A stretch of DNA of 64,000 bases, from assembly GCA_963818475.1 (NCBI GenBank), contig CAWFSF010000002.1, forward strand, positions 160,001-224,000, written 5' to 3'. The stretch is from Nitrospirota bacterium (lineage in GTDB: Bacteria > Nitrospirota > UBA9217). The notes beneath the pieces are model-generated. The model saw only the letters and a list, made by a program, of their open reading frames with translations. It was not told the origin of the DNA and ran no database searches. The first letter of the stretch is position 1; every line of letters begins with the position of its first letter. Shown here piece by piece: positions 435 to 46,488 of the stretch. The position numbers and the translations under genes are program-made.

Positions 435-460
435 AAGCTTCATTTGCTCTATTGATGAAT

Positions 461-2998: not shown

Positions 2999-3025
2999 AT
3001 ACTGACTCCTTCGGTCCCGGGCAGA

Positions 3026-3253: not shown

Positions 3254-3331
3254 TGATATTCCCCTTTCTGAAGCTCAGGTTCACTCCGTTCGAGAAGGCC
3301 TCCGGCTATGAGCGATGGAAAACTTTGTTCT

Positions 3332-7783: not shown

Positions 7784-9079
7784 TTACCTCTTCATCTCTT
7801 GGTGGCATTGGACGCAAAGGTCCGTACCGAATTGAAAATGCATCAGGCGTTTCTGGTCCGACCCGTGAGACTTGTGGCAGCTCAGGCAATCCAGGGTGAG
7901 GTTTTTATTCCTCGGATCTGTCGCCTTTTCTCCTATCGGGTGTGACGAATGGTGCGTAAAGTCATGGCAGGTGCTGCAGAGATCAATGATCTTCGCCTCC
8001 TTCATCAGGAGGACATTATCGGATGCATGGGGAGAATGGCAGGTCGTGCACATCCCTTCCTGTACAGGATTGTGCTTGGAAAGTGCCTTTTCCTGCCTTG
8101 TGATCGTGTCCTTGTGGCAACTGCCACAGAGGCTCGTCATCGAGTCCTGTTTCAGGAGGGCCGCCCGCTTTGAGGCATGAGGGCTATGACAGTTCAGGCA
8201 GCCCCGATGATCGATCAGGGGCCAATGAATCCGGTTTTTGGACAATGCGGCATTGACCATTTCATAGTGGCATCCGCGGCAGAGCTCAAAACCGGTCTTC
8301 TTGGTCTTGAATGGCGTCGATGATGTCGGGTCTTCATGACACTGATTGCACATCTTGTTGGCGACCGGAACGTGAACGGTGTCATAAAGAAGGGCGCTTC
8401 TCATGGAACCGTGGGGATTATGGCACGAAGTGCAGTTGGAATCAGCAACAGGATAATTCTGATGGACCTTCACAAAGAACGGCTTGTCGGTCTGATGGCA
8501 GTCCTTGCAGAGACCAGGAACGTCCTTCTTGAGAAGATGGAGCGCCGTGGCCGACCCATGGGGATTGTGGCAATTCAAACATCCCGAGGTCACCGGCTTA
8601 TGCTTGCGTTTCGCCTTATCGAGGGAGTCACCCAGTTCCTTGTGGCAATCCAGGCAGAGTTTGTTGCCGGAAAGCTTAAGATTGAACTTGTTGGCCGCTG
8701 CATGGGGATCATGGCATTTGACGCAATTGCCCTCTGTAACGACCTTGTGGCTGCTCTTCGCCTTATCAGGGATCACCGACGCATGGCACGTGCTGCATAT
8801 CGCGCCGGTATCGGTCGCAAGAAGTTTGCCGTGTGAAGACGTATGCGGGCTGTGGCATCCGATACATTCTCCCTGCCTGAGCGGAGTATGCACAAATGTG
8901 TTTTTCAGCTTTTCGGAGAACGTCGAGTGACAGCCGAGGCAGATTTTACCCTCTGCTCCAGGCTTCAGCCTGAACTTGTTCTGCGCATCTGAGCGGTCAA
9001 CGGCGATCGTGAGAAAACAGGTGCTGATCAGCACGGTCAAACAGATCCAGAATTTCATATATGACATTATCCTTTTCAT
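7784..9079 (-). CDS. 16-heme periplasmic cytochrome c (paired CXXCH repeats)
   Basis: 16 CXXCH motifs counted; signal peptide; ATGA overlap with the upstream gene at 9076-9079. Confidence 0.93.
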   Translation of the reverse strand: MKRIMSYMKFWICLTVLISTCFLTIAVDRSDAQNKFRLKPGAEGKICLGCHSTFSEKLKNTFVHTPLRQGECIGCHSPHTSSHGKLLATDTGAICSTCHASVIPDKAKSSHKVVTEGNCVKCHDPHAAANKFNLKLSGNKLCLDCHKELGDSLDKAKRKHKPVTSGCLNCHNPHGSATALHLLKKDVPGLCKDCHQTDKPFFVKVHQNYPVADSNCTSCHNPHGSMRSALLYDTVHVPVANKMCNQCHEDPTSSTPFKTKKTGFELCRGCHYEMVNAALSKNRIHWPLIDHRGCLNCHSPHASKRAALLKQDSMTSLCGSCHKDTITRQEKALSKHNPVQEGMCTTCHSPHASDNVLLMKEAKIIDLCSTCHDFTHHSSHPIGEKATDPRNKNLTLDCLSCHKSHGSDQKRLMHFQFGTDLCVQCHQEMKR

Positions 9080-11040
9080 TGCTTTTCCCCGATATGGCAT
9101 GCCTCACAGGACCGTGCCGCAAAGGGCGGGTGCATCACTTCCTTGAAGAATTTGGGGTCCTTGGACATATGGGGATCATGGCAACGCCTGCAATTCATCT
9201 GCTTCGCGTCGATCCCAATGTGGGCCTTCGCGAACGATGGACGGGTAAAATCGTGACAGTTGCCGCACAGATCCGGAACCGGCTGAGAGACCAGAGAAGC
9301 CTGGGGCGAGAAATGGGGCATATGGCACGTCAGACAGTTCCCTTCTACCGGAGAATGCACGTTTTCCTTTGCCATCCGTTCCTTCATGTCCTTATGGCAG
9401 GTCAGGCAGAGGTCCGGGCTCGATGCGAGCAGAAGGCTTTTCAACTTCGACTTGTGCGGGCTGTGGCACTTCGAGCACTCACCGTTCGTGACCGGGGTAT
9501 GCCTGCTCTTGCCGTCCTGGACGGCCTTCTTCAGGTCAGGGTGGCAGGTAAAGCAGATCTCCTCCTGTTTTTTCACGATCATCCCCTTGATATTGCTTCC
9601 ATGGGCATCGTGGCACGTGAGGCAATCGCCCCCGGTGAACGGTATATGGTTGGTCCCTCCAACTTCCTCTTTCATGAATTCTCCGTGGCACTGCTTGCAG
9701 AGATCGGAACCCGAGGCTTTCAGGATCCTCGGGATGTCGGAACCGTGGGGATTGTGGCATGCGTTGCACTGGGCATTTACCACCGGCTGATGGACATAGT
9801 TCCTTGCAAATCCAATTTCCGCGTCTGAATGACAGGAGTAGCAGACCTTGTCCATCCTGTCTTTCATCATATTCTGGAAATTCGAGCCGTGGGGATTATG
9901 ACAGGAGGAACACATCTCCGCGTCGAACGGCATATGGGCATTCTTGCTTTTCTTTGCGTCTTTCGTCTTTGCATGGCAGGAAAAACAAAGCTCGCCGTCC
10001 TTTGCCCGAAGCATTTTCTGGTTCTTGGCGGCATGGGGGGCATGGCAGGACAGGCAGCCGTTTCCGGTGGTAACTGCGGCATGGGAGACAGCGGTCTTTT
10101 CGCCCTTGTCGGGATGGCAGCTGAAACACAGCTTGTTGCCGGCATCGGCGAGAAGCTTCATGTTCTCCGAATCATGGGGGTTGTGGCAGGAAAGACACAT
10201 GCCGCCCTGGAAAGGCGCGTGCACGATCTCGCCGCCGGCCTTGAGCCCGGCCTGATCATGGCATTGATAACAAAGCTCCCCTCCGCTCAGGATGGTGCCG
10301 AACGGCTTATCGGATGTTGCGGGATTGTGGCACATGTTGCAGGCAGCGGAAACGAGAGGATTGTGAGCGCTTGTCTTGAGGAGCTTGGCCTGCGCTGAGG
10401 AGTGGGGATTATGACATTTTGTACAGGTCCTGTCCTTGACAGGATACCCGCCGTGCGCTTTTTTGAAAGAAGAATTCTCGCTGTCATGACACGTCATGCA
10501 CAGGGTGGCGGCTGGATTTCGCAGCAGATTGACTTCGTCTGAACCATGCGAAAAATGGCACCCTTTGCAGCCGTCGGTCTGAAGTGGCTTATGTACCACT
10601 TTCTTTTCGAACTGCTCCTTCGCGTGGCACTGATAACAAAGATCGCTCCCTTCGGATTTAAGCAGGTGATCCGACTGAGATGCGTGCGGGTTATGGCAGA
10701 GAGAACATTGCCCATTTTTCAGCGCTGTGTGAACATGAGCCTTGTCGGCCCCGATCTTCTCCTTGCTGTGACAGGCATAGCAGGTTTGATTCCCGATATC
10801 CTTCAGAATGAGCTTGGGGATGATGCCGTGGCGGAGATGGCAATCCTCGCATTTTTTTTCTTTGACGACAACGTGCACATTTTTCATCGAAAAATATTTT
10901 TGCTCGAATTTAGTATGGCAGTCTAAACACTCTTTCCGCTGAAACGTCTGCATTCTTATCTGCGGCTCGCATGCCATCAGAACGAGAGTTCCTGCCAGAA
11001 CAAGCAGCAGCGTCTGTATGAAATATTTTTTATTTTTCAT
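9076..11040 (-). CDS. 26-heme lipoprotein cytochrome c
   Basis: 26 CXXCH motifs counted with CxxCHxPHxS repeats; lipobox LMA-C after MKNKKY. Confidence 0.93.
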   Translation of the reverse strand: MKNKKYFIQTLLLVLAGTLVLMACEPQIRMQTFQRKECLDCHTKFEQKYFSMKNVHVVVKEKKCEDCHLRHGIIPKLILKDIGNQTCYACHSKEKIGADKAHVHTALKNGQCSLCHNPHASQSDHLLKSEGSDLCYQCHAKEQFEKKVVHKPLQTDGCKGCHFSHGSDEVNLLRNPAATLCMTCHDSENSSFKKAHGGYPVKDRTCTKCHNPHSSAQAKLLKTSAHNPLVSAACNMCHNPATSDKPFGTILSGGELCYQCHDQAGLKAGGEIVHAPFQGGMCLSCHNPHDSENMKLLADAGNKLCFSCHPDKGEKTAVSHAAVTTGNGCLSCHAPHAAKNQKMLRAKDGELCFSCHAKTKDAKKSKNAHMPFDAEMCSSCHNPHGSNFQNMMKDRMDKVCYSCHSDAEIGFARNYVHQPVVNAQCNACHNPHGSDIPRILKASGSDLCKQCHGEFMKEEVGGTNHIPFTGGDCLTCHDAHGSNIKGMIVKKQEEICFTCHPDLKKAVQDGKSRHTPVTNGECSKCHSPHKSKLKSLLLASSPDLCLTCHKDMKERMAKENVHSPVEGNCLTCHMPHFSPQASLVSQPVPDLCGNCHDFTRPSFAKAHIGIDAKQMNCRRCHDPHMSKDPKFFKEVMHPPFAARSCEACHIGEKQ

Positions 11041-11074
11041 GGGTAGTATCATAGTGAAGTATAGACTGTAATTG

Positions 11075-12775
11075 CTATATGTCAATCCCTTCTATATAGA
11101 CCCTGATATCCGCTCCTGCTCTGAGTTTATCGGCCCAACCCTCCACTCCCTGCTTAATGCGTTCATCGAACAATTGTTTCGCTATCGGAGCCCTGACCGA
11201 CACATAGTCCTGGGTCTGCGATGGGTATACGGCCACTACGGAGATAATGTAAAAATAGCCTTCAGGCCCTGCATAAAGCCTCGAATCTCCCGAACTCACA
11301 CCCGAAAGCGTTGTCTTGAGGTCGTCCGGCAATTCCGGGGTGGTGAAAACATTCCCCGCTAATTTCATAAGGTCTTCAGCATCCTTCTCGACCTGTCCCT
11401 GGGCATGTTCCTTTAACCAGGAAAGCTGGTCTCCGTTTTTGAGTTTCCGCAAAGCCGTTTCCGCACCGCTCCTCTTTTTAAAAGCAATGCTGTCCAGCCT
11501 CATCAGCTCGGATGTAGTATATTCCGCGAAATGCTGTGTGTAATATGCTTTAACTTCGGATTCCATTACGTTTATTTCCGGGAGAACGACCTTCTCAACG
11601 AACACACCGAAGACAACGGAGTTCTCATAATTCTTGACCACCTTTTGATACGAAGCAGCCTTCTTAATATCTTCGACAGCAGCCTCCTTCAAAAGCACTC
11701 TTTTTTCGAGCACCTCGTCAAGAACCATGTGTTTTTTCTCATTCAAGTTCGTTTTTCCGATCGCCCGGTCGATGCCATGAAAGTATTTCTGTCGCAACTC
11801 GTCAGTCAGATCAGACACTTTTACCGGGTCTTCCCCTGCTATTTCAGCGACGACACGCTCGTCTGTCATAAGTTTCTCGAACTTCTCCGGCGAAGACCCG
11901 TAATCAAGACCGTCGAAAACCTCTTTATTGATCTTTACATACTTATTTTTTAAGGACTCGATAAATTCCTGCCTTGCCACGCTCTTCTGCTGCTGCAGTG
12001 CTTCCGTTATTGCCGATTCTTTTTTCTCCGGGGATTCCTCGCGGCGGGCATCGTCCAGTTTTACGAGCGCAAACCCCGCAGGGATATTGATAATCTGGCT
12101 GACCGAGCCTGTCGTCATTGTCAAAAGCGCCTCGCTCAGCCCAGGGAGGATCTCGTCGTTTTTTAAATATCCTTCAGCCTTCCCTCCCTTTGCCTTCCCT
12201 GCGGCAATCGCCTTTTCTGCAAGCTCTTCAAAATTCTTGCCTGTTCTGAGTTCCGCCTCCATCTTCCGCGCGTCATCTTCCTTGGCAAACATGACCGATG
12301 CAAATTTCCATTCCATTATGTTCCTTTTGTAGAGTTTATCAACCATGGCATCATCAGGCTTTATACCCTTTTCATGCTCCTTGATCAGGGCTGTTCTGAG
12401 AGTCTCTCTGGAGTAGCCCTCTACCGATCCTTTGACTTCCGGCAGTTCGTTCAGCCCGATATTTTTTGCTTCCTGCAGAATAAGCCTCGTGTTAACCAAA
12501 CGCTTTACGAGGCCGGCATAATCCACCTTTCCCGGCGTCTTCCCCCCGGCCTTCTGCTCACCGGCTCTTTCCTCTTCAGACATGATGCTGAAGTGCATCG
12601 CTGAAATTTCCTGTTCATATTCTTCCCGGGAGATCGGCTCGCCATTGACGAGCGCCACAGCTTCTTTCCCTTCAAAAAGGGGAAGTTTCGCTGTTGATGT
12701 TGATACACACGCCGTTGTTCCCGTCATCAACACGGCCGCCAAAACAATGACCAAAAGTGCTGGGATTCGTCTCAT
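11075..12775 (-). CDS. SurA/PrsA-like peptidyl-prolyl isomerase chaperone (lipoprotein)
   Basis: VALVNGEPISREE N-domain, two parvulin-like regions (GKNFEELA), TAC lipobox; AAGGAG RBS before 12775. Confidence 0.8.
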   Translation of the reverse strand: MRRIPALLVIVLAAVLMTGTTACVSTSTAKLPLFEGKEAVALVNGEPISREEYEQEISAMHFSIMSEEERAGEQKAGGKTPGKVDYAGLVKRLVNTRLILQEAKNIGLNELPEVKGSVEGYSRETLRTALIKEHEKGIKPDDAMVDKLYKRNIMEWKFASVMFAKEDDARKMEAELRTGKNFEELAEKAIAAGKAKGGKAEGYLKNDEILPGLSEALLTMTTGSVSQIINIPAGFALVKLDDARREESPEKKESAITEALQQQKSVARQEFIESLKNKYVKINKEVFDGLDYGSSPEKFEKLMTDERVVAEIAGEDPVKVSDLTDELRQKYFHGIDRAIGKTNLNEKKHMVLDEVLEKRVLLKEAAVEDIKKAASYQKVVKNYENSVVFGVFVEKVVLPEINVMESEVKAYYTQHFAEYTTSELMRLDSIAFKKRSGAETALRKLKNGDQLSWLKEHAQGQVEKDAEDLMKLAGNVFTTPELPDDLKTTLSGVSSGDSRLYAGPEGYFYIISVVAVYPSQTQDYVSVRAPIAKQLFDERIKQGVEGWADKLRAGADIRVYIEGIDI

Positions 12776-12866
12776 GGTAACTCCTTTGTAATTGCAGTCA
12801 TGGCTGATGCAGATTTTCTTTAGACAATTCTTTAGACAAGAGCTTGATATACTAAAGTCATAAGAT

Positions 12867-12882
12867 AGCAATTAATGTACCA
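12867..12882 (-). promoter_or_regulatory. Sigma54 (-24/-12) promoter
   Basis: TGGTAC-ATTAA-TTGCT on the minus strand ~90 bp upstream of the PPIase-cytochrome genes. Confidence 0.75.
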
Positions 12883-13074: not shown

Positions 13075-16000
13075 TTATTTCTGTTTAGCCATTTTTTCAA
13101 CGGCACGTGCCATTTCAGCCGCCAGTGCATGGGCGGTATTGATGCGGCCCCAGTCAAACAAGTAAACAGCATCATCTCCTTCATTGCGACTGCTGGATGA
13201 CCATACCACCTCACGAGTATTCCTGTTGATAAGCAGCAGAGAAAACCCAACCTTTGGCTTGCCAAAAACCCCAGTATGGTCTTGATAATCCAGAACTTTT
13301 CCGCTAAGAATAAGATCAGCTTTCAGTTCGTCTGCAATAAGATCGGCATCAGTGAGGGATATCCCGTCGTACATAATTATCCTGTAATCGAGTAATTTTT
13401 CTTTTATAAGGCCGGGTTCAATGACGCTGAAATGTTTTCCGTTAAAAAGCTCCCGCAAAAAATGCTGCGCCATGATCTCTCCTGCATATTTTCTGTCAGT
13501 GCTATTCGTAAAAGGCATTATTGCAATTCGACGCGGAGCATCATCGTCAATCACCGTAACGGTATGCGACCCGACCTCCCCCGGGGTCGCGTTCACCGAA
13601 GTTCCCAGGGTCGCCACGATCGTCTTATTGTCCTCTTGCAGCGTATTGTTCATGAGGACACTACTGACGCCGGCCGTGGTCGCGCCTGCCTTGATGGTCA
13701 CGGGGTTCGGGGTCATGACCCGGTAGTGCTTCCCGTCAACAGCGGTCCCGCTCACGGTAAAGGGCACGACCACGTCCTTGCCCGATGCGCTGGAGAGCTG
13801 CATGGTCACGGTTGCCGACCCGCCGTTCTCCTGCACGTCCTGTCCCGCCGAGGTGAAGGTGATCGCGGGCGCGGGGTCGTTGTCGATGATCGTACAGGTA
13901 TGGACCGTCTGTTTGCCCAGGACGGCGTTGACGGGGTTTATGAGCGTCGCTTCGATGGTCTCACTGTCTTCGTGGAGGTTGTCGTCGATGATCCCGAGGT
14001 CGATGCTCTTGGCAGTCTCACCGGGCTCGAAAGCGAGGGTGGTGGTTTTCAGGGTATGGTCCCTGCCGGTCTCTGCCGTGCCGCCGGTGACGGCGTATTC
14101 CACGGTCGCTGGTTTGCCGCTGGCCGCGCTTAATGATACTTCGATCTTCGCAGGGCTCTTTCCTTCAGCTTCCTGGGAGCCCTGCAGCATAAAGGAGACA
14201 AGGGGCGCCGGGTCGTTGTCCGTGACGGTTACGGTATGGACCGGGCGTTCGCCCAAAGCTGCATTTTCCGGTTTCCCCAGGGCCACGACGGTCGTCTTGC
14301 TGTCTTCGTAGAGGTTGTTGTCCAGCAGGGCAAGGGTGATGCCGGCCGTGGTCGCGCCTGCCTTGATGGTCACGGGGTTCGGGGTCATGACCCGGTAGTG
14401 CTTCCCGTCAACAGCGGTCCCGCTCACGGTAAAGGGCACGATCACGTCCTTGCCCGATGCGCTGGAGAGCTGCATGGTCACGGTTGCCGACCCGCCGTTC
14501 TCCTGCACGTCCTGTCCCGCCGAGGTGAAGGTGATCGCGGGCGCGGGGTCGTTGTCGATGATCGTATAGGTATGGACCGTCTGTTTGCCCAGGACGGCGT
14601 TGACGGGGTTTATGAGCGTCGCTTCGATGGTCTCGCTGTCTTCGTGGAGGTTGTCGTCGATGATCCCGAGGTCGATGCTCTTGGCAGTCTCACCGGGCTC
14701 GAAAGCGAGGGTGGTGGTTTTCAGGGTATGGTCCCTGCCGGTCTCTGCCGTGCCGCCGGTGACGGCGTATTCCACGGTCGCTGGTTTGCCGCTGGCCGCG
14801 CTTAATGATACTTCGATCTTCGCAGGGCCCTTTCCTTCAGCTTCCTGGGAGCCCTGCAGCACGAAGGAGACAAGGGGCGCCGGGTCGTTGTCCGTGACGG
14901 TTACGGTATGGACCGGGCGTTCGCCTAAAGCTGCATTTTCCGGCGTCCCCAGGGCCACGACGGTCGTCTTGCTGTCTTCGTAGAGGTTGTTGTCCAGCAG
15001 GGCAAGGGTGATGCCGGCCGTGGTCGCGCCTGCCTTGATGGTCACGGGGTTCGGGGTCATGACCCGGTAGTGCTTCCCGTCAACAGCGGTCCCGCTCACG
15101 GTAAAGGGCACGACCACGTCCTTGCCCGATGCGCTGGAGAGCTGCATGGTCACGGTTGCCGACCCGCCGTTCTCCTGCACGTCCTGTCCTGCCGAGGTGA
15201 AGGTGATCGTGGGCGCGGGGTCGTTGTCGATGATCGTACAGGTATGGACCGTCTGTTTGCCCAGGACGGCGTTGACGGGGTTTACGAGCGTCGCTTCGAT
15301 GGTCTCACTGTCTTCGTGGAGGTTGTCGTCGATGATCCCGAGGTCGATGCTCTTGGCAGTCTCACCGGGCTCGAAAGCGAGGGTGGTGGTTTTCAGGGTA
15401 TGGTCCCTGCCGGTCTCTGCCGTGCCGCCGGTGACGGCGTATTCCACGGTCGCTGGTTTGCCGCTGGCCGCGCTTAATGATACTTCGATCTTCGCAGGGC
15501 TCTTTCCTTCAGCTTCCTGGGAGCCCTGCAGCACGAAGGAGACAAGGGGCGCCGGGTCGTTGTCCGTGACGGTTACGGTATGGACCGGGCGTTCGCCCAA
15601 AGCTGCATTTTCCGGTTTCCCCAGGGTCACGACCGCTGTTTCTGTGTTCTCGGAGAGATGATCGTCCTTCGGCTTGATAATGATCGTTCCGCTTGTTTCG
15701 CCTGCCTTGATGAAGAGCGGGGCCGGCGTGATGCTGTAATCGGCACCTTCTTGCGCGGTCCCGCTCACGGTAAAGGGCACGACCACGTCCTTGCCCGATG
15801 CGCTGGAGAGCTGCATGGTCACTGTTGCCGACCCGCCGTTCTCCTGCACGTCCTGTCCCGCCGAGGTGAAGGTGATCGCGGGCGCGGGGTCGTTGTCGAT
15901 GATCGTATAGGTATGGACCGTCTGTTTGCCCAGGACGGCGTTGACGGGGTTCGAGAGCGTCACCTCGATGGTTTTGTTATCATTATATTTCCTGTCGTCG

Positions 16001-19000
16001 ATGATCCTTATATTGATAGTCTTAAATGTCTCGCCTGGGTTAAAGACCACAACGCCGTTCTTCAGCGTGTAATCCCTGTCGCTTGCAGCGCTGCCTCCCG
16101 TGACCGCGTACTCGACCGCGACTTTCTTCCTGCTGGCCAAGCTCAACGAGAGGGATATCTTTGCAGGGTTTTTTCTCTCATAACCTTCAGATCCCGCCAT
16201 GGAGAAGTTTACCGCAGGTTCAGGTTCTTCCATTAAATTTACGTTCGATGGGGTGTTGGTCTTTTTTGCAATCACCCTGTGGCGATGCACAATAAGGCTG
16301 CCCAGGACCGCGTTGACAGGGTTCGAGAGCGTTACCTCGATGGTCCTGTCATTGCCGTACATCCTGTCATCGAAGCCCCCGATGTCGATGACCTTGGACC
16401 TCTCCCCGGGGTCGAAGACAAGCATGCCTTTTTTCAGGGTATCGTCCCGGCCGTTTGCTGCAGTGCCGCCGCCCCTGACCGCATACTCCACCGTGGACCT
16501 CCTGCCGCTCGCCGCGCTCAACGACACTTCGATCTTCGCAGATCTCGCGCCTTCATCTTCTGTGGAGTCCTTCAAGCCAAAGCCGACGGCAGGCGGAGGA
16601 TCGCTTTCTACAACGGTCACCCGGTGCACGGCGCGCGCGCCCGGCGTCGCATTTACCGCCGTCCCTATCGACACCGATATCACGTTGTTATTTTCGTACA
16701 GCTTATTATCTACGAGAACTACGGTGATAATGCCGGTCCTTTCCCCGGCCCTGATGATCAAGGGGTTCGGGGTGCTGACCCGATAGTTCTTCCCGTCAAC
16801 CGCTGTCCCGCTCACGGTAAAGGGCACGAGCACGTCCTTCCCTGAGATTGCAGAGAGCTTTACGGTTACGGCCACCTCTCCGCTGTCCTCTCTGACCTCC
16901 TGTGCCTGCAAAGCGAAGGTCACGGATGGGGTCGGGTCGTTCTCGACAATGGTATAGGTATGGACCGTCTGTTTGCCCAGGACCGCGTTGACCGGGTTCG
17001 CGAGCGTCACTTCGATCGTCTCGCTGTCTTCGTGGAGATTGTCATCAATGATCCCGATGTCGATGTTCTTGGCAGTCTCGCCGGGCTTGAAGTCGAGCGT
17101 GCCGTTTTTCAGGGCATAATCCCTGCCGCTTACAGCCGTGCCGCCCGTGACCGCGTACTCCACCCTGATATTTTTACTGCTCACTGTGCTTAACGATGCG
17201 GTAAGACGAGCGCGCCCAACCGATTCCTTTCCACGGGAAACGGTTGCAGCAAACGAAACGGCAGGGGGGACGTCGTTTTCAATAATGGTATAGGTATGGA
17301 CCGACTGTTTGCCAAGGACCGTGTTAACAGGGTTCGCCAGCGTCACTTCGATGGTCTCGCTGTCTTCGTGGAGGTTGTCGTCGATGATCCCGAGGTCGAT
17401 GCTCTTGGCAGTCTCACCGGGCTCGAAGAGCGAGCGTGCCGTTTCTTTGGGCATAGTCGCTGCTGTTCGCTGCGGTGCCGCCCGTTACCGCATACTGTAC
17501 CGTGGTCCTTCTGCCGACTACTGAGCTCAGCGCGACGTCGAGCCTCGCAGGTGTTACACCTTCATCTCCACCGGATTCCTTCATCGAGAAGGCTACAACG
17601 GGAGGCGGACTGCTCTCAAAAATGGTCAGGCGGTGCACCGGGCGTTCGCCCAAAGCTGCATTTTCCGGTTTCCCCAGGGCCACGACGGTCGTCTTGCTGT
17701 CTTCGTAGAGGTTGTTGTCCAGCAGGGCAAGGGTGATGCCGGCCGTGGTCGCGCCTGCCTTGATGGTCACGGGGTTCGGGGTCATGACCCGGTAGTGCTT
17801 CCCGTCAACAGCGGTCCCGCTCACGGTAAAGGGCACGATCACGTCCTTGCCCGATGCGCTGGAGAGCTGCATGGTCACGGTTGCCGACCCGTCGTTCTCC
17901 TGCACGTCCTGTCCCGCCGAGGTGAAGGTGATCGCAGGCGCGGGGTCGTTGTCGATGATCGTATAGGTATGGACCGTCTGTTTGCCCAGGACGGCGTTGA
18001 CGGGGTTTACGAGCGTCGCTTCGATGGTCTCGCTGTCTTCGTGGAGGTTGTCGTCGATGATCCCGAGGTCGATGCTCTTGGCAGTCTCACCGGGCTCGAA
18101 AGCGAGGGTGGTGGTTTTCAGGGTATGGTCCCTGCCGGTCTCTGCCGTGCCGCCGGTGACGGCGTATTCCACGGTCGCTGGTTTGCCGCTGGCCGCGCTT
18201 AATGATACTTCGATCTTCGCAGGGCTCTTTCCTTCAGCTTCCTGGGAGCCCTGCAGCATAAAGGAGACAAGGGGCGCCGGGTCGTTGTCCGTGACGGTTA
18301 CGGTATGGACCGGGCGTTCTCCCAACGCTGCATTTTCCGGTTTCCCCAGGGCCACGACGGTCGTCTTGCTGTCTTCGTAGAGGTTGTTGTCCAGCAGGGC
18401 AAGGGTGATGCCGGCCGTGGTCGCGCCTGCCTTGATGGTCACGGGGTTCGGGGTCATGACCCGGTAGTGCTTCCCGTCAACAGCGGTCCCGCTCACGGTA
18501 AAGGGCACGATCACGTCCTTGCCCGATGCGCTGGAGAGCTGCATGGTCACGGTTGCCGACCCGTCGTTCTCCTGCACGTCCTGTCCCGCCGAGGTGAAGG
18601 TGATCGCAGGCGCGGGGTCGTTGTCGATGATCGTATAGGTATGGACCGTCTGTTTGCCCAGGACGGCGTTGACGGGGTTTACGAGCGTCGCTTCGATGGT
18701 CTCGCTGTCTTCGTGGAGGTTGTCGTCGATGATCCCGAGGTCGATGCTCTTGGCAGTCTCACCGGGCTCGAAAGCGAGGGTGGTGGTTTTCAGGGTATGG
18801 TCCCTGCCGGTCTCTGCCGTGCCGCCGGTGACGGCGTATTCCACGGTCGTTGGTTTGCCGCTGGCCGCGCTTAATGATACTTCGATCTTCGCAGGGCTCT
18901 TTCCTTCAGCTTCCTGGGAGTCCTGCAGCATGAAGGAGACAAGGGGCGCCGGGTCGTTGTCCGTGACGGTTACGGTATGGACCGGGCGTTCGCCCAAAGC

Positions 19001-20950
19001 TGCATTTTCCGGTTTCCCCAGGGCCACGACGGTCGTCTTGCTGTCTTCGTAGAGGTTGTTGTCCAGCAGGGCAAGGGTGATGCCGGCCGTGGTCGCGCCT
19101 GCCTTGATGGTCACGGGGTTCGGGGTCATGACCCGGTAGTGCTTCCCGTCAACAGCGGTCCCGCTCACGGTAAAGGGCACGATCACGTCCTTGCCCGATG
19201 CGCTGGAGAGCTGCATGGTCACGGTTGCCGACCCGCCGTTCTCCTGCACGTCCTGTCCCGCCGAGGTGAAGGTGATCGTGGGCGCGGGGTCGTTGTCGAT
19301 GATCGTATAGGTATGGACCGTCTGTTTGCCCAGGACGGCGTTGACGGGGTTTACGAGCGTCGCTTCGATGGTCTCGCTGTCTTCGTGGAGGTTGTCGTCG
19401 ATGATCCCGAGGTCGATGCTCTTGGCAGTCTCACCGGGCTCGAAAGCGAGGGTGGTGGTTTTCAGGGTATGGTCCCTGCCGGTCTCTGCCGTGCCGCCGG
19501 TGACGGCGTATTCCACGGTCGCTGGTTTGCCGCTGGCCGCGCTTAATGATACTTCGATCTTCGCAGGGCTCTTTCCTTCAGCTTCCTGGGAGCCCTGCAG
19601 CACGAAGGAGACAAGGGGCGCCGGGTCGTTGTCCGTGACGGTTACGGTATGGACCGGGCGTTCGCCCAAAGCTGCATTTTCCGGTTTCCCCAGGGTCACG
19701 ACCGCTGTTTCTGTGTTCTCGGAGAGATGATCGTCCTTCGGCTTGATAATGATCGTTCCGCTTGTTTCGCCTGCCTTGATGAAGAGCGGGGCCGGCGTGA
19801 TGCTGTAATCGGCACCTTCTTGCGCGGTCCCGCTCACGGTAAAGGGCACGACCACGTCCTTGCCCGATGCGCTGGAGAGCTGCATGGTCACTGTTGCCGA
19901 CCCGCCGTTCTCCTGCACGTCCTGTCCCGCCGAGGTGAAGGTGATCGCGGGCGCGGGGTCGTTGTCGGTGATCGTATAAGTATGGACCGTCTGTTTGCCC
20001 AGGACGGCGTTGACGGGTTTCGAGAGCGTCACCGCAATGGTCCTGTCGCCGCGGTAGAGCTTATCATCGAGGACCCTGATATCGATTTCTTTGGATAACT
20101 CCCCTGGCCCAAAGATCAGGGTGCCGCTTTTCAGGCTATAGTCCCTGCCGGTCTCTGCCGTGCCGCCGGTGACGGCGTATTCCACCGTTACCTTCCTCGG
20201 ACTGGGCGCGCTCAGCGATACATCGATCTTTGCGGGGGACACGCTTTCCTCCCTGCCCAACCTCCGCAACGCAAAATTAACGACAACTTCCCGAAAGCCG
20301 ACTCCGGTCACCGTTGAAACATAGTCGGCCTTGGGTTTGAATTTTCCGTTGTTCTCGTCATAATCTCTCTCGCGGCCGGAGACGAAGCCCGCCAGAGAAC
20401 CTGCAAGCGCGGCCGTAGCCCTGTCAAGAAGGACTTTCTGATCTTCGATCAGGCCAAGGCCGAGAAGACCCGGCGCATCATCGCCGGCCGAGCCGATGCT
20501 GTCAATCCATACAATTTCGGGGCGCTCTCCGGTTGAGACCAGACGCGCTGAGAGGGCGATCTGCGGAGGGTTGTTGTCGTGGTAAAGTTCGAGAGAGGTA
20601 ATGAGCACACCGGCAACTCCGGCCTCCTCCTTGAACGCGCGGGCCATGTCACTGTTGAGTCCGCCGGTATCGCGCATTCTCCGCCGTTCCATGAACTGCG
20701 CAAGCCCGTCCTCTTCCAGGAGATCGAAGCCCTGGCCCTTCAGTTTTTCCGAGAATGACCGCGCTATTTCATCAAGCGGCGCAGGCGAACTGCTGCGGTT
20801 TTCAATGGGCAAAAGCGCAATCCGGCCTAGCCGGTGGAAACCGGTATCACTTGTCAGCCGCCCGTTCACGGACGCGCACCCCGCAAGAAGCGCCAGACCC
20901 GCACAGAGGACCGTGAGGTGCTTATGCAATGTCTTTCCTGAAAGGTTCAT
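13075..20950 (-). CDS. Giant lipoprotein (~2,620 aa): N-terminal CsgG/GNA1162-like domain, ~20 Calx-beta domains, C-terminal CsgG/GNA1162-like domain; split by one frameshift near 17430
   Basis: Lipobox LLAG-C. Repeats VEYAVTGGTA..LAFEPGETAKSIDLGIIDDNLHEDSETIE..TIIDND. ORFs 17414..20950 and 13075..17454 join in mid-domain when one base is removed from ACGCTCGCTCTTCGAGCCC. Terminal domains begin IALLPIENRS and IAIMPFTNST. Confidence 0.85.
13668..15955. repeat. Near-identical 672-bp tandem repeats (two Calx-beta domains each), block 2
   Basis: Same sequence recurs at a 672-bp period with few substitutions; boundaries approximate. Confidence 0.9.
17637..20030. repeat. Near-identical 672-bp tandem repeats, block 1
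   Basis: Antisense ORFs recur at 17633, 18305, 18977 and 19649; the QEGADY-type unit is shared with block 2 at a 4069-bp offset. Confidence 0.9.
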
Positions 20951-21315
20951 GGCTTTTTCTGTAACGCCCGCCTGTCTCTTTGCTCGTCAAATTATAGGGC
21001 AGCTGCCTGCATGGCCGGAACAGCCTGCGAATCCGTCATTGTCAGGGAAAGGACCTTGTCGGGTGCGTGCTTTGGGGGGTGGCGAAATGTCCCCGGAAAG
21101 AGGATGATTTCACCTTGTCTGCAGCATGTTGTCCGAATAGTCATGCGTGCCGAATCCTGCGGAAACAAAATACGGGCGGCATTTCCCTGCCGCTTCTCTG
21201 GAACAACGGCAAGCTCTTTCCTCGACACGGGAAGGGTCCTTTTCCGCTGTTGACCTTCCCTCAGCAGGCCGGGAAGAGCGTCCGCTAACGGAGAACAGGA
21301 CCGCAGATCGCCTGG

Positions 21316-21894
21316 TCAAAAAAGCTCATTGACCAGCTCTATGACAGCCTCCCGCGTGACATCGTTCATCGGCCGTCCCCCGCCGCCCAGGAGACGGTCC
21401 CCGGCGGTTATGCCGCCCCGCGTGGAAGATGCGGTCCATACCACCCTGCCCGTCTGGGCCTCGATCATCTGAAGACTGAGGGAGATGACATTGGAAGACG
21501 TCGTCCCTGACCGGACCTCTCCATATTCCCTGAGCACGCCCGTGATAACGGCATCGGCCTTGACAATGCCCCCCAGTTTGGTGATCTCTTCCGCAGAGGG
21601 TACGGTCGCTTTCTCGATCCCTGCCCGTGTAATGCCTCGCGCAACCTCTCCAGCAGGGAGCACGTAGATGGCGCCTGTCGACAGAAGCATGTTCATGAAG
21701 ACGTCCCTTACCCTGTTTGCAGCCTGATTGTCTTTCGTGAGGTTCTCAAAAGGCATTACCGCAACGGTCCGCACCGACCCGAGGTCGAAATTCGGGTCAT
21801 GGTAAACCGAGCGTTTGGAGGAGGCAGCACAGGCCGGCAGGGAAATCAGAACAAGTGAAAGCAGGACCGTTATGAGATTTTTAATCACGTTCAT
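21316..21894 (-). CDS. GNA1162/CsgG-like lipoprotein
   Basis: Lipobox LPA-C, VAVMPFENLT, ADAVITG, MIEAQTGRVVW. Confidence 0.8.
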   Translation of the reverse strand: MNVIKNLITVLLSLVLISLPACAASSKRSVYHDPNFDLGSVRTVAVMPFENLTKDNQAANRVRDVFMNMLLSTGAIYVLPAGEVARGITRAGIEKATVPSAEEITKLGGIVKADAVITGVLREYGEVRSGTTSSNVISLSLQMIEAQTGRVVWTASSTRGGITAGDRLLGGGGRPMNDVTREAVIELVNELF

Positions 21895-21951
21895 CACCTC
21901 AATGGTATTATTTTTTATTATGACATGCAATAAAAATTCAGGTGGCGGCGA

Positions 21952-24189
21952 TCAAAAAAACACCATCAGGCTTGTACTGAATGCCCTTGCATCTGATTTG
22001 TCAAGATCCGATTCACCATGGGACACCTGATACGATGCCGCGAGATAGGAAGTGCGGCTGAGATTCAATCGAACGGACGGAGTGATGACCCTGGTCATCG
22101 CGTTGTTTTCGGACGCCAGACTCTCATTATACGCTAAAGAGAACTGGAATGCACCGTCGGGGAACGGCGACCAATTGAGCGAATAATTGTGGAACGTCCT
22201 GTCTCTCTCCTGGTCGGTTATCTTGCTCAGCGTAGCAACGAGGTAGAGCGTCCGAAACGGAATATAGGACGCGCTCACCTCTGTTCTCCTGGTAAAGTCC
22301 GATGAGCCCGGCCCGCCCCCTCCCGACCTGTCCGTTTTCGTTGAGGAAAAAAAATAGCTCAGGTTCAGGTCAGGGTGAGGCATCAGGTTGGAGAGAACGC
22401 TCCAGATCGTGCTTTTCACGTTTTCTCCCGTCTCCCGGTTCTGAAAGCTTTCCCCTCCAGAGACCACAATGTTTATGCCTTTGTAAAGGTCCGCATAATT
22501 GTTCAGGAAGAGGGATTTCGTGTCAGTTCGCCCGCCGTCTCTCTCCTCGTCCCGCCCGCTATAGGTAAGGCTGTGGCGGAGCGTCCGCAGGGGAACCGCC
22601 ATAAGGGAGGCGTTCGTGACATACGCAACACCGTTGCCTGCAGGATCGGAAAAGTCCTCCCGGGCGACTCGCGCGCTTCCTGAAAAAACTTTGCTGAACC
22701 TCTGGCTCACCAAGAGGCCGTTCGAAAGGTTCCATCTCTCCTGGGAAGAAGGCTCTGTCTTTGTGTAAAAATAGGAAAGTTCGTAATTGAGGTTCGGGAT
22801 GTCCAGAAGCTGCGCTCTCCCGTCAAAATTATAGGCATGGATGGTGCTGGTCGTTTCGCCTCTTACTTCCTCGGCGGGCTTTCTCGCAAACGCCTGGAGC
22901 TCCGTCACAAAGATGTCGGGAAACCCTGTTGCTCCCGTCACCACCGGAGACAGGGGTTTCACCACGACCTTTATGTATCTCGTCGTCACCGGTGAAAAAG
23001 CGATCTCAAAACGGTTATCAAAAGGCCCGAACTGTGCGGGGAATACGGTTGTGTGAAAATTCCAGACCAGGTTGTCCGAGCTTGTATAAATATCCCAGGA
23101 GAACGAGCTGGCGATTGCAGCCGGGAGCTCCCGGTCCACCCAGACAAAAAGCGTGTTCATCTCCCCCGGGAGAGACAGATCGAGACCGAGGTTCCGTTCC
23201 CTTCCGTCGCCCGTGATGGGCGGAAGCCCGATATTGACCCCCGTGCTTGCTGCCAGGGCGCCGTCTATCAAGGAGGCATTCGGCGTGAGGGCGCCGTCAG
23301 CAGGGGTGTCGTCGATGGATGACAGCCCTGAAAAGGGGACCAGCCCAATGTCCACCAACCCCGCCCCGGTGACAGAAGTTTTCATGGTGCTGTGGACAAC
23401 GTTGTAGCTCGTGTTGAACGAGATCCGCTCCTGGGCAATGCGATCGGAGTAATCCACCCTTCCAACCTGGTTCAGCTGCTTCGTTTCAAGGGACGTCAGC
23501 TGGTTTTTGGTGTTTATGTATGACGGCCGGTATCGTATTGCAAGATTGTCCGACGGCACATATTCCGCGGTGAGCCCGATGAAATCCCTGACCATGTCCT
23601 GGTAAGCCCGCTCCTTGTCAAAGAGATGGGTTCTTTCGGCCCGCATCTCGATATGGGGAAAGTCCTCCGGTCTCCAGCCAAGGATGGCGGTGCTGGTCTC
23701 ATTGATATTCGTTATCGAGGGCCCACTGGAGGAAGACGCCGTCTCCTCCCGTCTGAGGTATCTGACGCCGGCCGTGTAGATCGGCGTCCTCAAGGTAAGG
23801 TCAGCGTACGGCTGTATCCTGGTCAAGGTCGATTCTGTTTCCATGCCGTTGGTAGTCGATTCGCTGTCTGTTTTATCAAAAAGGCCGCTCGCAGAGAACC
23901 TGAGATAGGGGTAGAGGGTCCGGGAGAACGTCAGGTTGTAGCGTTGATTGAAGCTGTTGGCTTCCGTCCGGCTGACATTTCCCGAAGCATCTTCGGACCT
24001 GGAGTCCAGATTGCTGTATCCGAAGTTCAGATAACCACTGACCCCTTCCGCCACGACAGCATCGGGGCAGGATACCGCTCCCAGACAAAACAATGCCAGA
24101 AACACAGCGGCAGTGCCGGTTCCCCTGCAGCGGGATACCCACCATCGGCCTCCCTCTTTATCACGAGCGGCTGACAGCACAGAACGCAC
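21952..24189 (-). CDS. Large outer-membrane beta-barrel protein with an inserted discoidin-like beta-sandwich
   Basis: Alternating amphipathic strands, C-terminal Phe; central insert WDIYTSSDNLVW..TRYIKVVV..VTELQAF; start uncertain. Confidence 0.75.
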   Translation of the reverse strand: MRSVLSAARDKEGGRWWVSRCRGTGTAAVFLALFCLGAVSCPDAVVAEGVSGYLNFGYSNLDSRSEDASGNVSRTEANSFNQRYNLTFSRTLYPYLRFSASGLFDKTDSESTTNGMETESTLTRIQPYADLTLRTPIYTAGVRYLRREETASSSSGPSITNINETSTAILGWRPEDFPHIEMRAERTHLFDKERAYQDMVRDFIGLTAEYVPSDNLAIRYRPSYINTKNQLTSLETKQLNQVGRVDYSDRIAQERISFNTSYNVVHSTMKTSVTGAGLVDIGLVPFSGLSSIDDTPADGALTPNASLIDGALAASTGVNIGLPPITGDGRERNLGLDLSLPGEMNTLFVWVDRELPAAIASSFSWDIYTSSDNLVWNFHTTVFPAQFGPFDNRFEIAFSPVTTRYIKVVVKPLSPVVTGATGFPDIFVTELQAFARKPAEEVRGETTSTIHAYNFDGRAQLLDIPNLNYELSYFYTKTEPSSQERWNLSNGLLVSQRFSKVFSGSARVAREDFSDPAGNGVAYVTNASLMAVPLRTLRHSLTYSGRDEERDGGRTDTKSLFLNNYADLYKGINIVVSGGESFQNRETGENVKSTIWSVLSNLMPHPDLNLSYFFSSTKTDRSGGGGPGSSDFTRRTEVSASYIPFRTLYLVATLSKITDQERDRTFHNYSLNWSPFPDGAFQFSLAYNESLASENNAMTRVITPSVRLNLSRTSYLAASYQVSHGESDLDKSDARAFSTSLMVFF

Positions 24190-24194: not shown

Positions 24195-25595
24195 CTACCT
24201 CTCTCCCATCAGGGTCACCCAGTACGCGCCTTCGCCGACATCCAGCTCGGCGACCGTTTGGTTGCTGATGATATTGATGCCCAGAAGGGTCTTTTTTCGA
24301 GGCAGGACAAGATACAGGTTATTTTCGTCACCATCGATCGCCATGCAGGAGATGCCCCCTCCTGCCAGGATCGTATCAGTCGGCATTTCCAGTGCCGGCT
24401 CGTATACCGAAACCACAGGGTCATTGCGCTTACCGAGAAAAATACGGTCGGTCCTGGTATCCACCTTGAGAGCGCTCATTGCCGTCCCCGCGGAGATCCG
24501 CTGGAGCGCGGACAGGGTCGTTGTATCGATGACCATAAGGTATGAGGAGAGCGCATGGATGACATAGAGCCGGTCACCCTTCCGGTTCATCTGCCCCCGC
24601 AGCGGCCCCGCATCCGTGGAGATCGTCGCGGATACCTGCCTGGCTGCGAGATCGATGATCGAAATCGTATCGGAGAGGGTATTGAAGACATAGGCCCTCC
24701 TTCCGGCTGGATCGAAGAGGACCGCGTTGGGCGCTTTGCCCACGCTGATCCTCTCCAGCTCGATCAGGGAAACAGGGTCGATGATGCTTACCGTGTCCGA
24801 ACCCTTGTTCGCCGTCAGCAGGAAGCGGCCGTCGGGCGAGAGAGCCGGCTCTTGCGGACGGTCGCCGGTCGAGAGCGGTATCCTGTGCACAATATCGCCT
24901 GCGGCAACATCAATAACATCAACAGCATCATCCCCTGCAAGCGCTACATAGGCCCTCTGCCGTCCCTTGTCAAGGGCGATGCCCCGGGGGCCCATGCCTG
25001 TTGCGATAACGCTTACGACCTGTCCGGACTTTTTGTTGAAGACCGTGATGTTGTTCGACCCGTAATTTGCCACGTATCCCGCAAGGGCCGGGATCGGCTG
25101 GTCGGGATGAACGAGTAAAAAAGACGGGCTGAAACCGGACCGCTCTATTACTGCTTCGGCAGGACGGAACGTTCCTGCTATGACGGAGGACTTGCCCCTT
25201 CGCACCTCAAAGGGGAACCCGGCAAGCAGCGGATTTTCAGGCACGACGAGTGCACTCTCTCCCTCGGCCCCTCTGAAAAAGGGGTTAACGGCACGGAACG
25301 AAAGACCGGTATAGGACCCGGGCGGCAAGGTGCCGGAAGCTACGAGGCGCTGTCTGCTCATCACGCTGATACTGAAATCAGAGACCGCAAGCGAGAGGGG
25401 GAATTCCCTGCCGTCATCCCTCAGGGCAGCGACCTCGCTGAGGCCGAATCTGATCCGCTCCGCCTCTCCGGGAAAGGGCTGGACATAGAGAAAGACCTCG
25501 CCTTCCTCGTCGAGAGGAGGTTTCAGAGAAGCTGAGGTTGCGTAGCATCCGGAAAAAAAGACAACCCCGATAAGAAAAAGACTTATCTTACTCAT
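24195..25595 (-). CDS. YVTN/YncE beta-propeller lipoprotein
   Basis: FSG-C lipobox; YVANYGSNNITVF, ANKGSDTVSIID and NTLSDTISIID repeats. Confidence 0.85.
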   Translation of the reverse strand: MSKISLFLIGVVFFSGCYATSASLKPPLDEEGEVFLYVQPFPGEAERIRFGLSEVAALRDDGREFPLSLAVSDFSISVMSRQRLVASGTLPPGSYTGLSFRAVNPFFRGAEGESALVVPENPLLAGFPFEVRRGKSSVIAGTFRPAEAVIERSGFSPSFLLVHPDQPIPALAGYVANYGSNNITVFNKKSGQVVSVIATGMGPRGIALDKGRQRAYVALAGDDAVDVIDVAAGDIVHRIPLSTGDRPQEPALSPDGRFLLTANKGSDTVSIIDPVSLIELERISVGKAPNAVLFDPAGRRAYVFNTLSDTISIIDLAARQVSATISTDAGPLRGQMNRKGDRLYVIHALSSYLMVIDTTTLSALQRISAGTAMSALKVDTRTDRIFLGKRNDPVVSVYEPALEMPTDTILAGGGISCMAIDGDENNLYLVLPRKKTLLGINIISNQTVAELDVGEGAYWVTLMGER

Positions 25596-25934
25596 TGGAT
25601 TCCTTGCCCCACGGTTCACTTTCGTATCCGCTCCATCCTTCTCAGTGCGTGGATTCGATGAGTAGTATTAACAAGTCCCTCGCCTGCGTGCATTACAAAC
25701 CGTATTAATAGCGATGCGGGTCGTGGCCCCGCACCGCGTTTTTTTCTCTGTAATCTCCCTGTCCGGCTGTTGAATGTTCTTTTCGAACAACCAAAACAGT
25801 GTATCATGCTCCCCGCTGTTTTTATTATTTGTTCGTAGCAATCGTTCAGTCCTCTGCATGAAAAGAACTTTATCGATGAATCCTATACCTGGTCTGAGGC
25901 AAATGGTAGATGAAACGCGCTGTAAATTCAAGAG

Positions 25935-31570: not shown

Positions 31571-31738
31571 CGCGCGACACGGCAACGGGTATCCATGTGC
31601 CGCTGAAGCGCTGTGCAGCCGGCAAAGGGCCTGGTCGGGCATGGGTTCCCGGCAATGCATCCTGGCGAGCGGAAGACCGTACTGCTCGGAAGAAGCTGCT
31701 CGAACCAACGCCAATCGCTCTGATCACGGAGGACACGA

Positions 31739-46471: not shown

Positions 46472-46488
46472 GAATACGACTCCTTTCT

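What the first reader, a model, noticed from the sequence alone, without database searches (positions are those of the whole stretch)
13075..20950. Giant Calx-beta repeat lipoprotein built into the nanowire export module
Seen: a lipoprotein with CsgG/GNA1162-like domains at both ends, separated by ~20 Calx-beta domains (~2,620 aa after repairing one frameshift), located between the beta-barrel/lipoprotein genes and the PPIase. Inference: this is the normally short two-domain companion lipoprotein with a long Ca2+-binding rod inserted in its linker. It could act as a spacer, as a scaffold through a thick envelope or S-layer, or as a mineral adhesin guiding the wire. I do not know of this architecture being described.
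Basis: partly seen in the sequence, partly recalled or inferred. Interest (0 to 1): 0.82.

Follow-up and report, generated by a model that had tools for sequence, protein, structure and literature searches.

The report
Nanowire-export lipoprotein with giant Calx-beta loop
A lipoprotein of the machinery thought to put conductive cytochrome "nanowires" on the cell surface carries, in this uncultured bacterium, 20 calcium-binding-type repeat domains spliced into one loop of its core, an accessory arm that swells and shrinks across its family and that I did not find described in print.

Summary
Real. The gene (20950-13075, minus strand) reads through one extra base at ~17428 as 2,624 aa: lipobox, a PelC-like domain, 20 Calx-beta domains, a second PelC-like domain. 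It occupies the OscG slot of an omcS-companion (osc) cluster in a Nitrospirota genome. (1) The cores are nearer PelC (Z 16.5) than CsgG (11.6). (2) The array sits not in the linker but inside domain 2, after its first strand, so it is most likely a loop with both ends at the membrane, not a rod between the domains. (3) It is not unique: 15 of 23 family genomes with the gene carry 2-25 Calx domains at this site, 3 carry MBG repeats at the N-terminus, 5 are compact; the window's nearest relatives include compact forms with an excision-like scar. The break is probably a sequencing error (housekeeping genes here are also frameshifted), but no read covers it and all four arrays of about 20 or more domains are broken as assembled. 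Function is untested: most likely an accessory Ca2+-stiffened adhesive or spacing arm, side of the membrane unknown. This scan noted the same architecture earlier in two other genomes.

The parts
13075..20950 (-). OscG-position lipoprotein gene, 2,624 aa when read through one frame break (about 272 kDa mature)
20876..20950 (-). Signal peptide and lipobox, Cys25
   Evidence: sequence shows it directly; lipid attachment inferred
20366..20824 (-). PelC-like domain 1 (about residues 43-195); 64-68% identical to compact relatives P0001-P0003
20315..20344 (-). First beta-strand of PelC-like domain 2 (about residues 203-212), left on the N-terminal side of the array
   Evidence: PelC aligns to residues 203-376 of the compact model; covariation with the C-terminal core
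13534..20287 (-). Array of 20 Calx-beta domains (residues 222-2472), mostly alternating A and B types
17673..20237 (-). First copy of a 2,565-bp block (repeats 1-8), 95.3% identical to the second copy, no gaps
13604..16168 (-). Second copy of the 2,565-bp block (repeats 13-20)
17426..17430 (-). One extra base in repeat 9 that splits the gene as assembled; probably a sequencing error, not verified
   Evidence: no contig covers it
13075..13533 (-). Core of PelC-like domain 2 (residues 2473-2624); 75-76% identical to P0001-P0003
27519..28460 (-). NHL-like beta-propeller gene heading the cluster
   Evidence: no Pfam hit; about 22% like the downstream NHL gene in relatives and conserved in place
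25992..27239 (-). OmcS-like cytochrome
   Evidence: phmmer to OmcS 6EF8, E 2e-106, full length
24195..25619 (-). YncE-like beta-propeller (OscD slot)
21952..24189 (-). Large outer-membrane beta-barrel candidate (OscE/OetI slot)
   Evidence: no Pfam hit; barrel call inferred from sequence pattern and position
21316..21930 (-). Single-domain PelC/GNA1162-like protein (OscF slot)
11075..12871 (-). SurA-like PPIase (OscH slot)
9076..11085 (-). 26-heme cytochrome (OscI slot)
7784..9100 (-). 16-heme cytochrome (OscJ slot)
6871..7776 (-). NHL beta-propeller closing the eight-gene block

Best explanation
One intact gene in the living cell encodes an OscG orthologue. Its two PelC-like domains pack side by side at the outer membrane as part of a lipoprotein collar on the OscE barrel, through which the OmcS-like cytochrome is exported or anchored (inferred from fold, synteny and the PelBC precedent). 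The 20 Calx-beta domains are an accessory arm grafted into the loop after the first strand of domain 2, so both ends return to the collar: a hairpin of roughly 40-45 nm if stiff (my estimate from about 4-4.5 nm per domain, recalled). Ca2+ bound between domains probably stiffens it. The arm is not needed for the core job, and its length changes quickly by internal duplication and deletion. Its most likely role is that of an adhesin-like extender on the cell surface around the base of the nanowire, holding mineral, matrix or partner cells at the site of electron exit. Shown: architecture, insertion site, synteny, variation, purifying selection. Inferred: intact frame, collar, Ca2+ binding, surface side, adhesion.
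For: Slot and neighbours: OmcS-like gene, propeller, barrel and OscF-like gene are present in 72 of 72 loci with enough flank, PPIase in 63, the two cytochromes in 59 and 56; the order matches the eight-gene block GSU2500-2493 (passage) with OscI and OscJ numbered as. Fold: PelC Z 16.5, rmsd 2.8 A over 149 residues, covering model residues 203-376. Closed core: AlphaFold2 pTM 0.87 for a compact relative and 0.81 for a two-Calx relative, with the first strand and the domain-2 core both formed; covariation ranks D158-N356 (domain 1 to domain 2) 6th and R203-L361 and K207-N341 (first strand to domain-2 core) 8th and 9th among all pairs, and the window keeps D/N, K/L and K/N at these pairs across 2,250 residues. 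One fixed insertion site in all Calx-bearing rows shown, with a shared junction motif in all but P0126. Dispensable and labile: 0-25 domains among relatives. Three different Ig-like repeat types (Calx-beta inside domain 2; MBG or PKD/Y_Y_Y-like at the N-terminus) decorate this protein; 0 of 52 N-terminally extended proteins also carry Calx. dN/dS 0.09-0.31 for the cores and 0.21-0.47 for 8 of 8 repeat pairs compared with G082. Ligand-like motifs: DD-x3-E-x2-E in 10 of 20 repeats, a Lys variant in 5, terminal D-[ND]-D in 15, aligning with the NCX1 calcium-binding domains. Ca2+ stiffening of tandem beta-sandwich extenders is reported for RTX adhesins (PMC7493085, abstract). A type II secretin over the family cut-off is in the genome, so a route to the surface may exist. 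Frame break: 5 of 44 loci with homologues in other genomes show a clear frame change, including dapB and glgC, about one per 10 kb, and breaks in relatives fall at other places.
Against: No read or contig covers the break. All four arrays of about 20 or more domains (G000, G014, G061 C3, G082) are broken as assembled; the longest unbroken frames hold 14 domains (G075, P0206). PelC, the closest fold, sits on the periplasmic face (PMC12141448, section 7), which argues against a surface arm. No tip ligand-binding domain exists, unlike classical adhesins. The covariation rests on about 271 effective sequences for 332 columns and is noisy beyond the top ranks; the pairs are less well kept in several other Calx-bearing proteins. 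The structure models are of relatives, not of this protein, and their coordinates could not be inspected. Nothing here shows expression, Ca2+ binding, oligomer state or adhesion. The role of the osc proteins is itself called speculative in a review (PMC12307469, passage).
Confidence: 0.45

Rival explanations
1. Same intact gene and loop, but periplasmic: the collar sits under the barrel like PelC, and the Calx loop lies along the inner face of the outer membrane or against peptidoglycan, bracing or spacing export sites or catching the OscH-OmcS complex.
For: PelC is the best fold match and forms a periplasmic ring in PelBC; lipoproteins default to the periplasmic leaflet (established knowledge); no dedicated export signal is visible on a 272-kDa protein.
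Against: A 20-25 domain array is much longer than a usual periplasm is wide (recalled, 20-30 nm); length varies 0-25 without change in the barrel or the 26- and 16-heme cytochromes; Calx-beta, MBG and PKD arrays are typical of surface proteins (recalled); the same fold family includes TraT and HpaA, recalled as surface-exposed.
Confidence: 0.27
2. The frameshift is real: an over-expanded, unstable array has broken the gene (decay or phase variation). The cell would make a lipoprotein with domain 1 and 8.5 Calx domains; the downstream frame has no signal peptide and could not be exported.
For: The extra base is in the assembly and not in a long homopolymer; 4 of 4 arrays of about 20 or more domains are broken; differences among the near-identical copies are mostly non-synonymous.
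Against: About one break per 10 kb is this assembly's background, including dapB and glgC; G082 and G084 are also broken in other cluster genes; no stop codon lies in either frame over 7.9 kb; dN/dS is well below 1; break sites differ between genomes, so no shared programmed site.
Confidence: 0.16
3. One reading: the array is a straight rod that holds domain 2 far from the lipid-anchored domain 1, bridging a thick envelope or S-layer.
For: N-terminal Ig-like stalks in other orthologues lie between the signal peptide and both domains, which would fit a need for reach; the first strand might re-pair with domain 1 in long versions.
Against: The insertion splits domain 2; the two-Calx relative still folds as one compact unit; no SLH match in the genome; partners do not scale with array length; compact sisters exist.
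Confidence: 0.07
4. The true array is shorter; part of the copy number (for example the 2,565-bp block duplication) is an assembly artefact.
For: Repeats 2 and 14 are identical and A/B copies differ by only 1-10 nt; one public contig joins 15075 to 16801.
Against: Copies carry distinct variant patterns and the duplicated blocks differ at 121 sites; G082 has 20 domains in a similar layout at 55-76% identity; short contigs collapse repeats, which explains the join.
Confidence: 0.05

Closest known systems
OscG of the Geobacter sulfurreducens omcS-companion (osc) cluster (Shen et al. 2025, Cell Chem Biol; paper not readable here, known through passages in PMC13194489 and bioRxiv 10.1101/2025.11.06.686851; GSU2497 inferred by counting genes)
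   Same: Fourth gene of the eight-gene block after an omcS-like cytochrome; two PelC-like domains homologous to the Geobacteraceae gene in that slot (46% to Geotalea uraniireducens P0054; same order in L046, L067, L083, L090).
   Different: About 2,624 aa instead of about 375; 20 Calx-beta domains inside domain 2; Nitrospirota host; broken by one base as assembled.
PelC of the PelBC exopolysaccharide export complex (PDB 5T0Z, 5T10, 9H80; PMC12141448)
   Same: Best fold match (Z 15.4-16.5); lipoprotein encoded beside a large outer-membrane barrel.
   Different: PelC is one domain forming a homododecamer for polysaccharide export; here two fused domains plus a separate one-domain paralogue, 16-22% identity, cytochrome context, and a repeat array.
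CsgG curli secretion lipoprotein
   Same: Same broad alpha/beta fold (Z 11.6).
   Different: Weaker match than PelC, 134 of 206 residues aligned at 5.0 A; no Pfam CsgG hit; a separate barrel gene supplies the likely pore; no csg genes nearby.
Ca2+-stiffened extender regions of RTX/BAP adhesins (MpIBP, MhLap, AhLap, SiiE; PMC7493085 abstract)
   Same: Long tandem beta-sandwich array with acidic linkers, near-identical internal copies and variable length.
   Different: No RTX repeats or type I secretion signal seen, no distal ligand-binding domain, lipid anchor, and the array is a loop inside a secretion-collar domain.
Tandem Calx-beta domains CBD1-CBD2 of Na+/Ca2+ exchangers (PDB 3US9, 3RB5)
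   Same: One A-B repeat pair aligns with CBD12 (E 1.5e-16); type A keeps the acidic motif of CBD1 and type B has Lys where CBD2 has Lys.
   Different: Twenty domains in an exported bacterial lipoprotein, not a two-domain cytoplasmic sensor.

Membership tests
OscG (osc cluster) | Lies in the eight-gene block after an omcS-like cytochrome: propeller, barrel, lipoprotein, THIS, PPIase, two multiheme cytochromes, NHL | tested here: met
   block described, names
OscG (osc cluster) | Two PelC-like domains homologous to the Geobacteraceae gene in the same slot | tested here: met
OscG (osc cluster) | Direct sequence match to G. sulfurreducens OscG itself | not tested
   that sequence was not fetched; GSU2497 is inferred by counting
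OscG (osc cluster) | Compact size of about 375 aa (typical, 175 of 252 proteins) | tested here: not met
   this is the variation reported, not a sign of non-orthology
OscG (osc cluster) | Needed for OmcS secretion; binds OmcS (binding recalled from the abstract of Shen et al. 2025) | not testable with these tools
   needs experiments
PelC | PelC fold | tested here: met
   on a compact relative 68% and 76% identical in the two domains: Foldseek E 4e-10, VIA Z 16.5; profile E 2e-4
PelC | Single-domain lipoprotein encoded in a pel operon | tested here: not met
   two domains, cytochrome cluster, no pel genes among the 40 window proteins scanned
PelC | Dodecameric ring on the periplasmic face of a barrel | not testable with these tools
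CsgG | CsgG family sequence signature and csg operon | tested here: not met
   no PF03783 hit and no csg neighbours
CsgG | Pore-forming transmembrane hairpins | tested here: inconclusive
   only 134 of 206 CsgG residues align; coordinates not inspected
Calx-beta (PF03160) | Pfam match over the gathering score, beta-sandwich fold | tested here: met
   TM-score 0.83-0.90 to single CBD and integrin beta4 domains for a relative
Calx-beta (PF03160) | Acidic Ca2+-ligand motifs | tested here: inconclusive
   full inner motif in 10 of 20 repeats, Lys variant in 5, terminal motif in 15; binding itself not measured
RTX/BAP adhesin | RTX repeats, type I secretion signal, distal ligand-binding domain | tested here: not met
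   none in the Pfam scan or the read-through sequence

The most novel reading that the evidence does not exclude
The nanowire export collar is a surface-facing, modular display platform: OscG has repeatedly recruited unrelated Ig-like arrays (Calx-beta inside domain 2, MBG or PKD-like at the N-terminus) that form a Ca2+-stiffened corolla of tens of nanometres around the base of each OmcS-type wire, coupling adhesion to electron exit and tuned in length like an accordion. This would fix the topology of OscEFG and reveal a layer hidden because short-read assemblies break at this gene.
Probability: 0.25. Interest if true: 0.75.

Novelty: new variant of a known kind. Interest (0 to 1): 0.48.

Why it matters
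[quoted passage not shown] Nature has here tagged one component of the proposed machine with a 250-kDa repeat array at a defined loop. Where that array ends up tells on which side of the outer membrane OscG lies, and it marks a permissive site for tags in Geobacter OscG. If the arm is adhesive it would link attachment and electron transfer in one gene. It is still a variant of a published system, common within one family, with no functional data.

Tried and rejected
Reads: 7 public runs held 5-16% of the words, no RNA holder listed; 4 were laid, pieces matched at about 95-99% in three runs but none covered 17255-18839, so the break and the copy number are unverified. Complex prediction of domain 1 with domain 2 was not available, so their binding rests on single-chain models and covariation only. 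Shen et al. 2025 and Marmont et al. 2017 are not held; the one supplement held for PMC13194489 had no osc gene list; supplements of the Shen paper, which may list long OscG homologues, and of bioRxiv preprints could not be seen. A search for relatives over 2,062 aa found none among 5,252 candidates (weak evidence, and giants are split in assemblies). Tandem Repeats Finder found nothing because the 672-bp period exceeds its 500 limit. ESM Atlas gave only sub-0.9 leads to unnamed lipoprotein clusters. Programmed frameshift rejected: no shared break site. Ruler for the heme chain rejected. SLH-type S-layer not found with PF00395 in a 91%-complete genome. Single origin of the insert neither shown nor excluded: 9 changes on the 77-row tree, at least 3 forced by strong branches, AU p 0.056 for one clade of 34 Calx rows plus P0001-P0003; the 77 rows were my selection from 343. 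A donor in this genome was not found: the only other Calx match is one domain in a 2,302-aa frame on C2. Of 7 loci flagged with a frame change I dropped 2 after inspection (one flagged by 1 of 80 queries, one by an off-frame query). Foldseek on the two-Calx model listed Calx and other beta-sandwich chains in its top 50, so the core fold was tested on the compact model instead.
Full report
Observation. The region holds two overlapping minus-strand ORFs, 20950-17414 (1,178 aa) and 17454-13075 (1,459 aa). Read through with X at the break they make 2,624 aa with a lipobox Cys at residue 25. Twenty Calx-beta domains fill residues 222-2472, window 20287-13534. They are mostly two alternating types; six A copies are 96-99% identical, five B copies 89-99%, and a 2,565-bp block (repeats 1-8) recurs as repeats 13-20 at 95.3%. 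The break is one extra base at about 17428 in repeat 9.

Setting. Upstream lie an NHL-like gene, an OmcS-like cytochrome (E 2e-106 to PDB 6EF8), a YncE propeller, a 745-aa barrel candidate and a 204-aa PelC/GNA1162-like protein; downstream a SurA-like PPIase, 26- and 16-heme cytochromes and an NHL protein. This is the eight-gene block GSU2500-2493 that follows the omcS-like GSU2501 in Geobacter (bioRxiv 10.1101/2025.11.06.686851, passages), named the osc cluster, with OscE, F and G proposed for secretion (PMC13194489, passages). The giant gene is the fourth of the block, the OscG slot; that name rests on counting and on homology to Geobacteraceae genes in the slot, not on a direct comparison with GSU2497. 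Among 160 fetched loci, the 72 with enough flank all had the cytochrome, propeller, barrel and OscF-like gene. Members of the window's family carry proteins identical to records titled Nitrospirota.

What the end domains are. A profile of compact relatives hits PelC (E 2e-4). An AlphaFold2 model of compact relative P0002 (68% and 76% identical to the window's two domains; pLDDT 91.5, pTM 0.87) matches PelC best: Z 16.5, 16.2 and 15.4 for three PelC entries, against 12.6 for GNA1162 and 11.6 for CsgG (Foldseek agrees). In PelBC twelve PelC lipoproteins form a ring on the periplasmic side of a barrel (PMC12141448, section 7 and passages). A collar of OscF and OscG domains on the OscE barrel is the natural inference, not a result.

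Where the array is inserted. PelC aligns to residues 203-376 of the compact model, so the short strand at about 203-212 belongs to domain 2. In every Calx-bearing row shown, the array starts just after that strand and ends just before the next strand of domain 2. Covariation over 360 compact sequences (about 271 effective) ranks two pairs between that strand and the domain-2 core 8th and 9th and one domain 1-domain 2 pair 6th; the window keeps the common residues at all three, several other Calx-bearing proteins do not. A two-Calx relative (P0134) folds with pTM 0.81 and keeps the strand. So the array most likely leaves and re-enters one domain: a loop, not a rod between two domains.

How common. 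Of 262 proteins from three searches, 252 have both domains: 175 compact, 16 with 2-14 Calx domains at this site, 52 with an N-terminal extension of 90 residues or more and none of those with Calx, 9 with a slightly longer loop. Extensions scanned were PKD/Y_Y_Y/Ig-like or MBG repeats (40 proteins scanned). In the window's family 23 of 64 genomes have the gene: 15 with Calx (G000 20, G014 25, G061 about 20 and a second copy with 4, G082 20, G075 14, G063 8, G084 7, G029 5, G032 4, G068 2; G007, G019, G023, G024, G062 cut by contig ends), 3 with MBG-type N-terminal repeats (G036, G069, G078), 5 compact. In a sample of 401 genomes of the phylum, the 25 matching genomes outside the family all had frames of at most 531 aa. 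Arrays of 14 or more domains came only from assemblies of 7-20 contigs, while five fragmented assemblies break inside the gene, so giants are probably under-counted and some short arrays may be collapsed. On a 77-row tree the window groups (SH-aLRT 100) with seven Calx-bearing rows and with compact P0001-P0003, whose loop keeps both junction motifs of the window's insert, as expected of a clean loss. One origin of the insert is suggested by the shared junction but is neither shown nor rejected (AU p 0.056).

Is the break real? No public contig covers it. Of 44 loci of this genome with homologues among fetched DNA, 5 show a clear frame change over 52 kb, including dapB and glgC; in the window the P-type ATPase lies in four pieces and an acyl-CoA ligase in two. 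One break in 7.9 kb is thus the background expectation. Cores and repeats show purifying selection (dN/dS 0.09-0.47). Against this, all four arrays of about 20 or more domains are broken as assembled, each at different places, and the longest unbroken frames hold 14. I put sequencing error at about 80%.

How it probably works. The cores do the OscG job at the barrel. The arm is accessory: barrel size and heme numbers stay constant from 0 to 25 domains, which rules against a ruler for the envelope, and no SLH domain was found. Ten of 20 repeats keep the full inner acidic motif, five a Lys variant and 15 the terminal motif, and an A-B pair aligns with the CBD1-CBD2 tandem of Na+/Ca2+ exchangers; Ca2+ in linkers stiffens adhesin extenders (PMC7493085, abstract). 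Recruitment of three kinds of adhesin-type repeats, fast length change and a size beyond a usual periplasm point to the surface, and a type II secretin is present. The PelC precedent points to the periplasm. I give the surface arm 0.45, the periplasmic brace 0.27, a truly broken gene 0.16, the straight spacer 0.07, inflated copy number 0.05.

Novelty. Ten paper searches listed no paper joining Calx-beta with OmcS, OscG or PelC-like nanowire lipoproteins; the SRB genomics paper that names the barrel OetI has no occurrence of Calx (PMC10553843, passages). The key paper, Shen et al. 2025, and its supplements could not be read, and most subscription papers are not searched. PMC13712944, PMC12307469 and PMC12954529 were seen as passages; other titles only as search listings. 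Earlier notes of this scan report the same architecture in two other genomes; my reading was written down before I saw them. Verdict: a new variant of a known kind, interest 0.48.

Noticed in passing
L019:8361-13112 (G036), L118 (G069), L119 (G078); proteins P0181, P0200, P0230: OscG orthologues with up to about 1,250 residues of MBG repeats between the signal peptide and domain 1, instead of Calx; G036 has no lipobox, G069 has one.
   Followed up: partly
P0113, P0115, P0117, P0131, P0156, P0162, P0188, P0244, P0256, P0259: A third elaboration: N-terminal PKD/Y_Y_Y/Ig-like repeats of up to about 1,100 residues on OscG, one labelled Desulfuromonadales.
   Followed up: partly
L107:7504-10050 (G061 C5): A four-Calx OscG copy with no osc gene found within the 18 kb fetched, in a genome that also has the giant copy in a full cluster; orphan copy, or a binning error.
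   Followed up: no
P0001 (L128): Compact sister of the window protein with a short tandem duplication of the first strand of domain 2 at the insertion site, a sign that this loop is a rearrangement hotspot.
   Followed up: no
window 20951-21315: A 365-bp gap separates the OscF-like stop from the OscG start; in the relatives viewed the two genes abut or overlap.
   Followed up: no
window 39729-42385, 49348-50899, 28974-30761: P-type ATPase in four pieces, acyl-CoA ligase in two, and a PMT-TPR protein with a shifted C-terminus: the assembly carries many single-base indels.
   Followed up: yes
window 89-4060: A partial ATP synthase set (a subunit, two b-like subunits, a delta-like fragment) interrupted by an aldehyde dehydrogenase gene of lower GC.
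   Followed up: no
window 43718-47475: A 40% GC island with three ORFs, two without Pfam match (566 and 318 aa) and one DUF4365; possibly a defence or restriction locus.
   Followed up: no
window 31094-36240: PilZ proteins, a sigma-54 two-component system and a phosphonate-binding-like protein lie just upstream of the cluster and may regulate it.
   Followed up: no
window 59943-62205: Two integrase-core transposase genes in a low-GC stretch.
   Followed up: no
G000:C2:546256-553161: A 2,302-aa low-GC frame for a probably secreted protein with a zinc-protease-like motif, repeats and a single Calx-beta domain, the only other Calx match in the genome.
   Followed up: no
L109:19230-19720 (G082): An AT-rich repeat array of about 150-bp period upstream of the cluster.
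   Followed up: no
G001-G005: None of the five other genomes of the window's genus (65-92% complete) matched the OscG profile, so the cluster is patchy even within the genus.
   Followed up: partly
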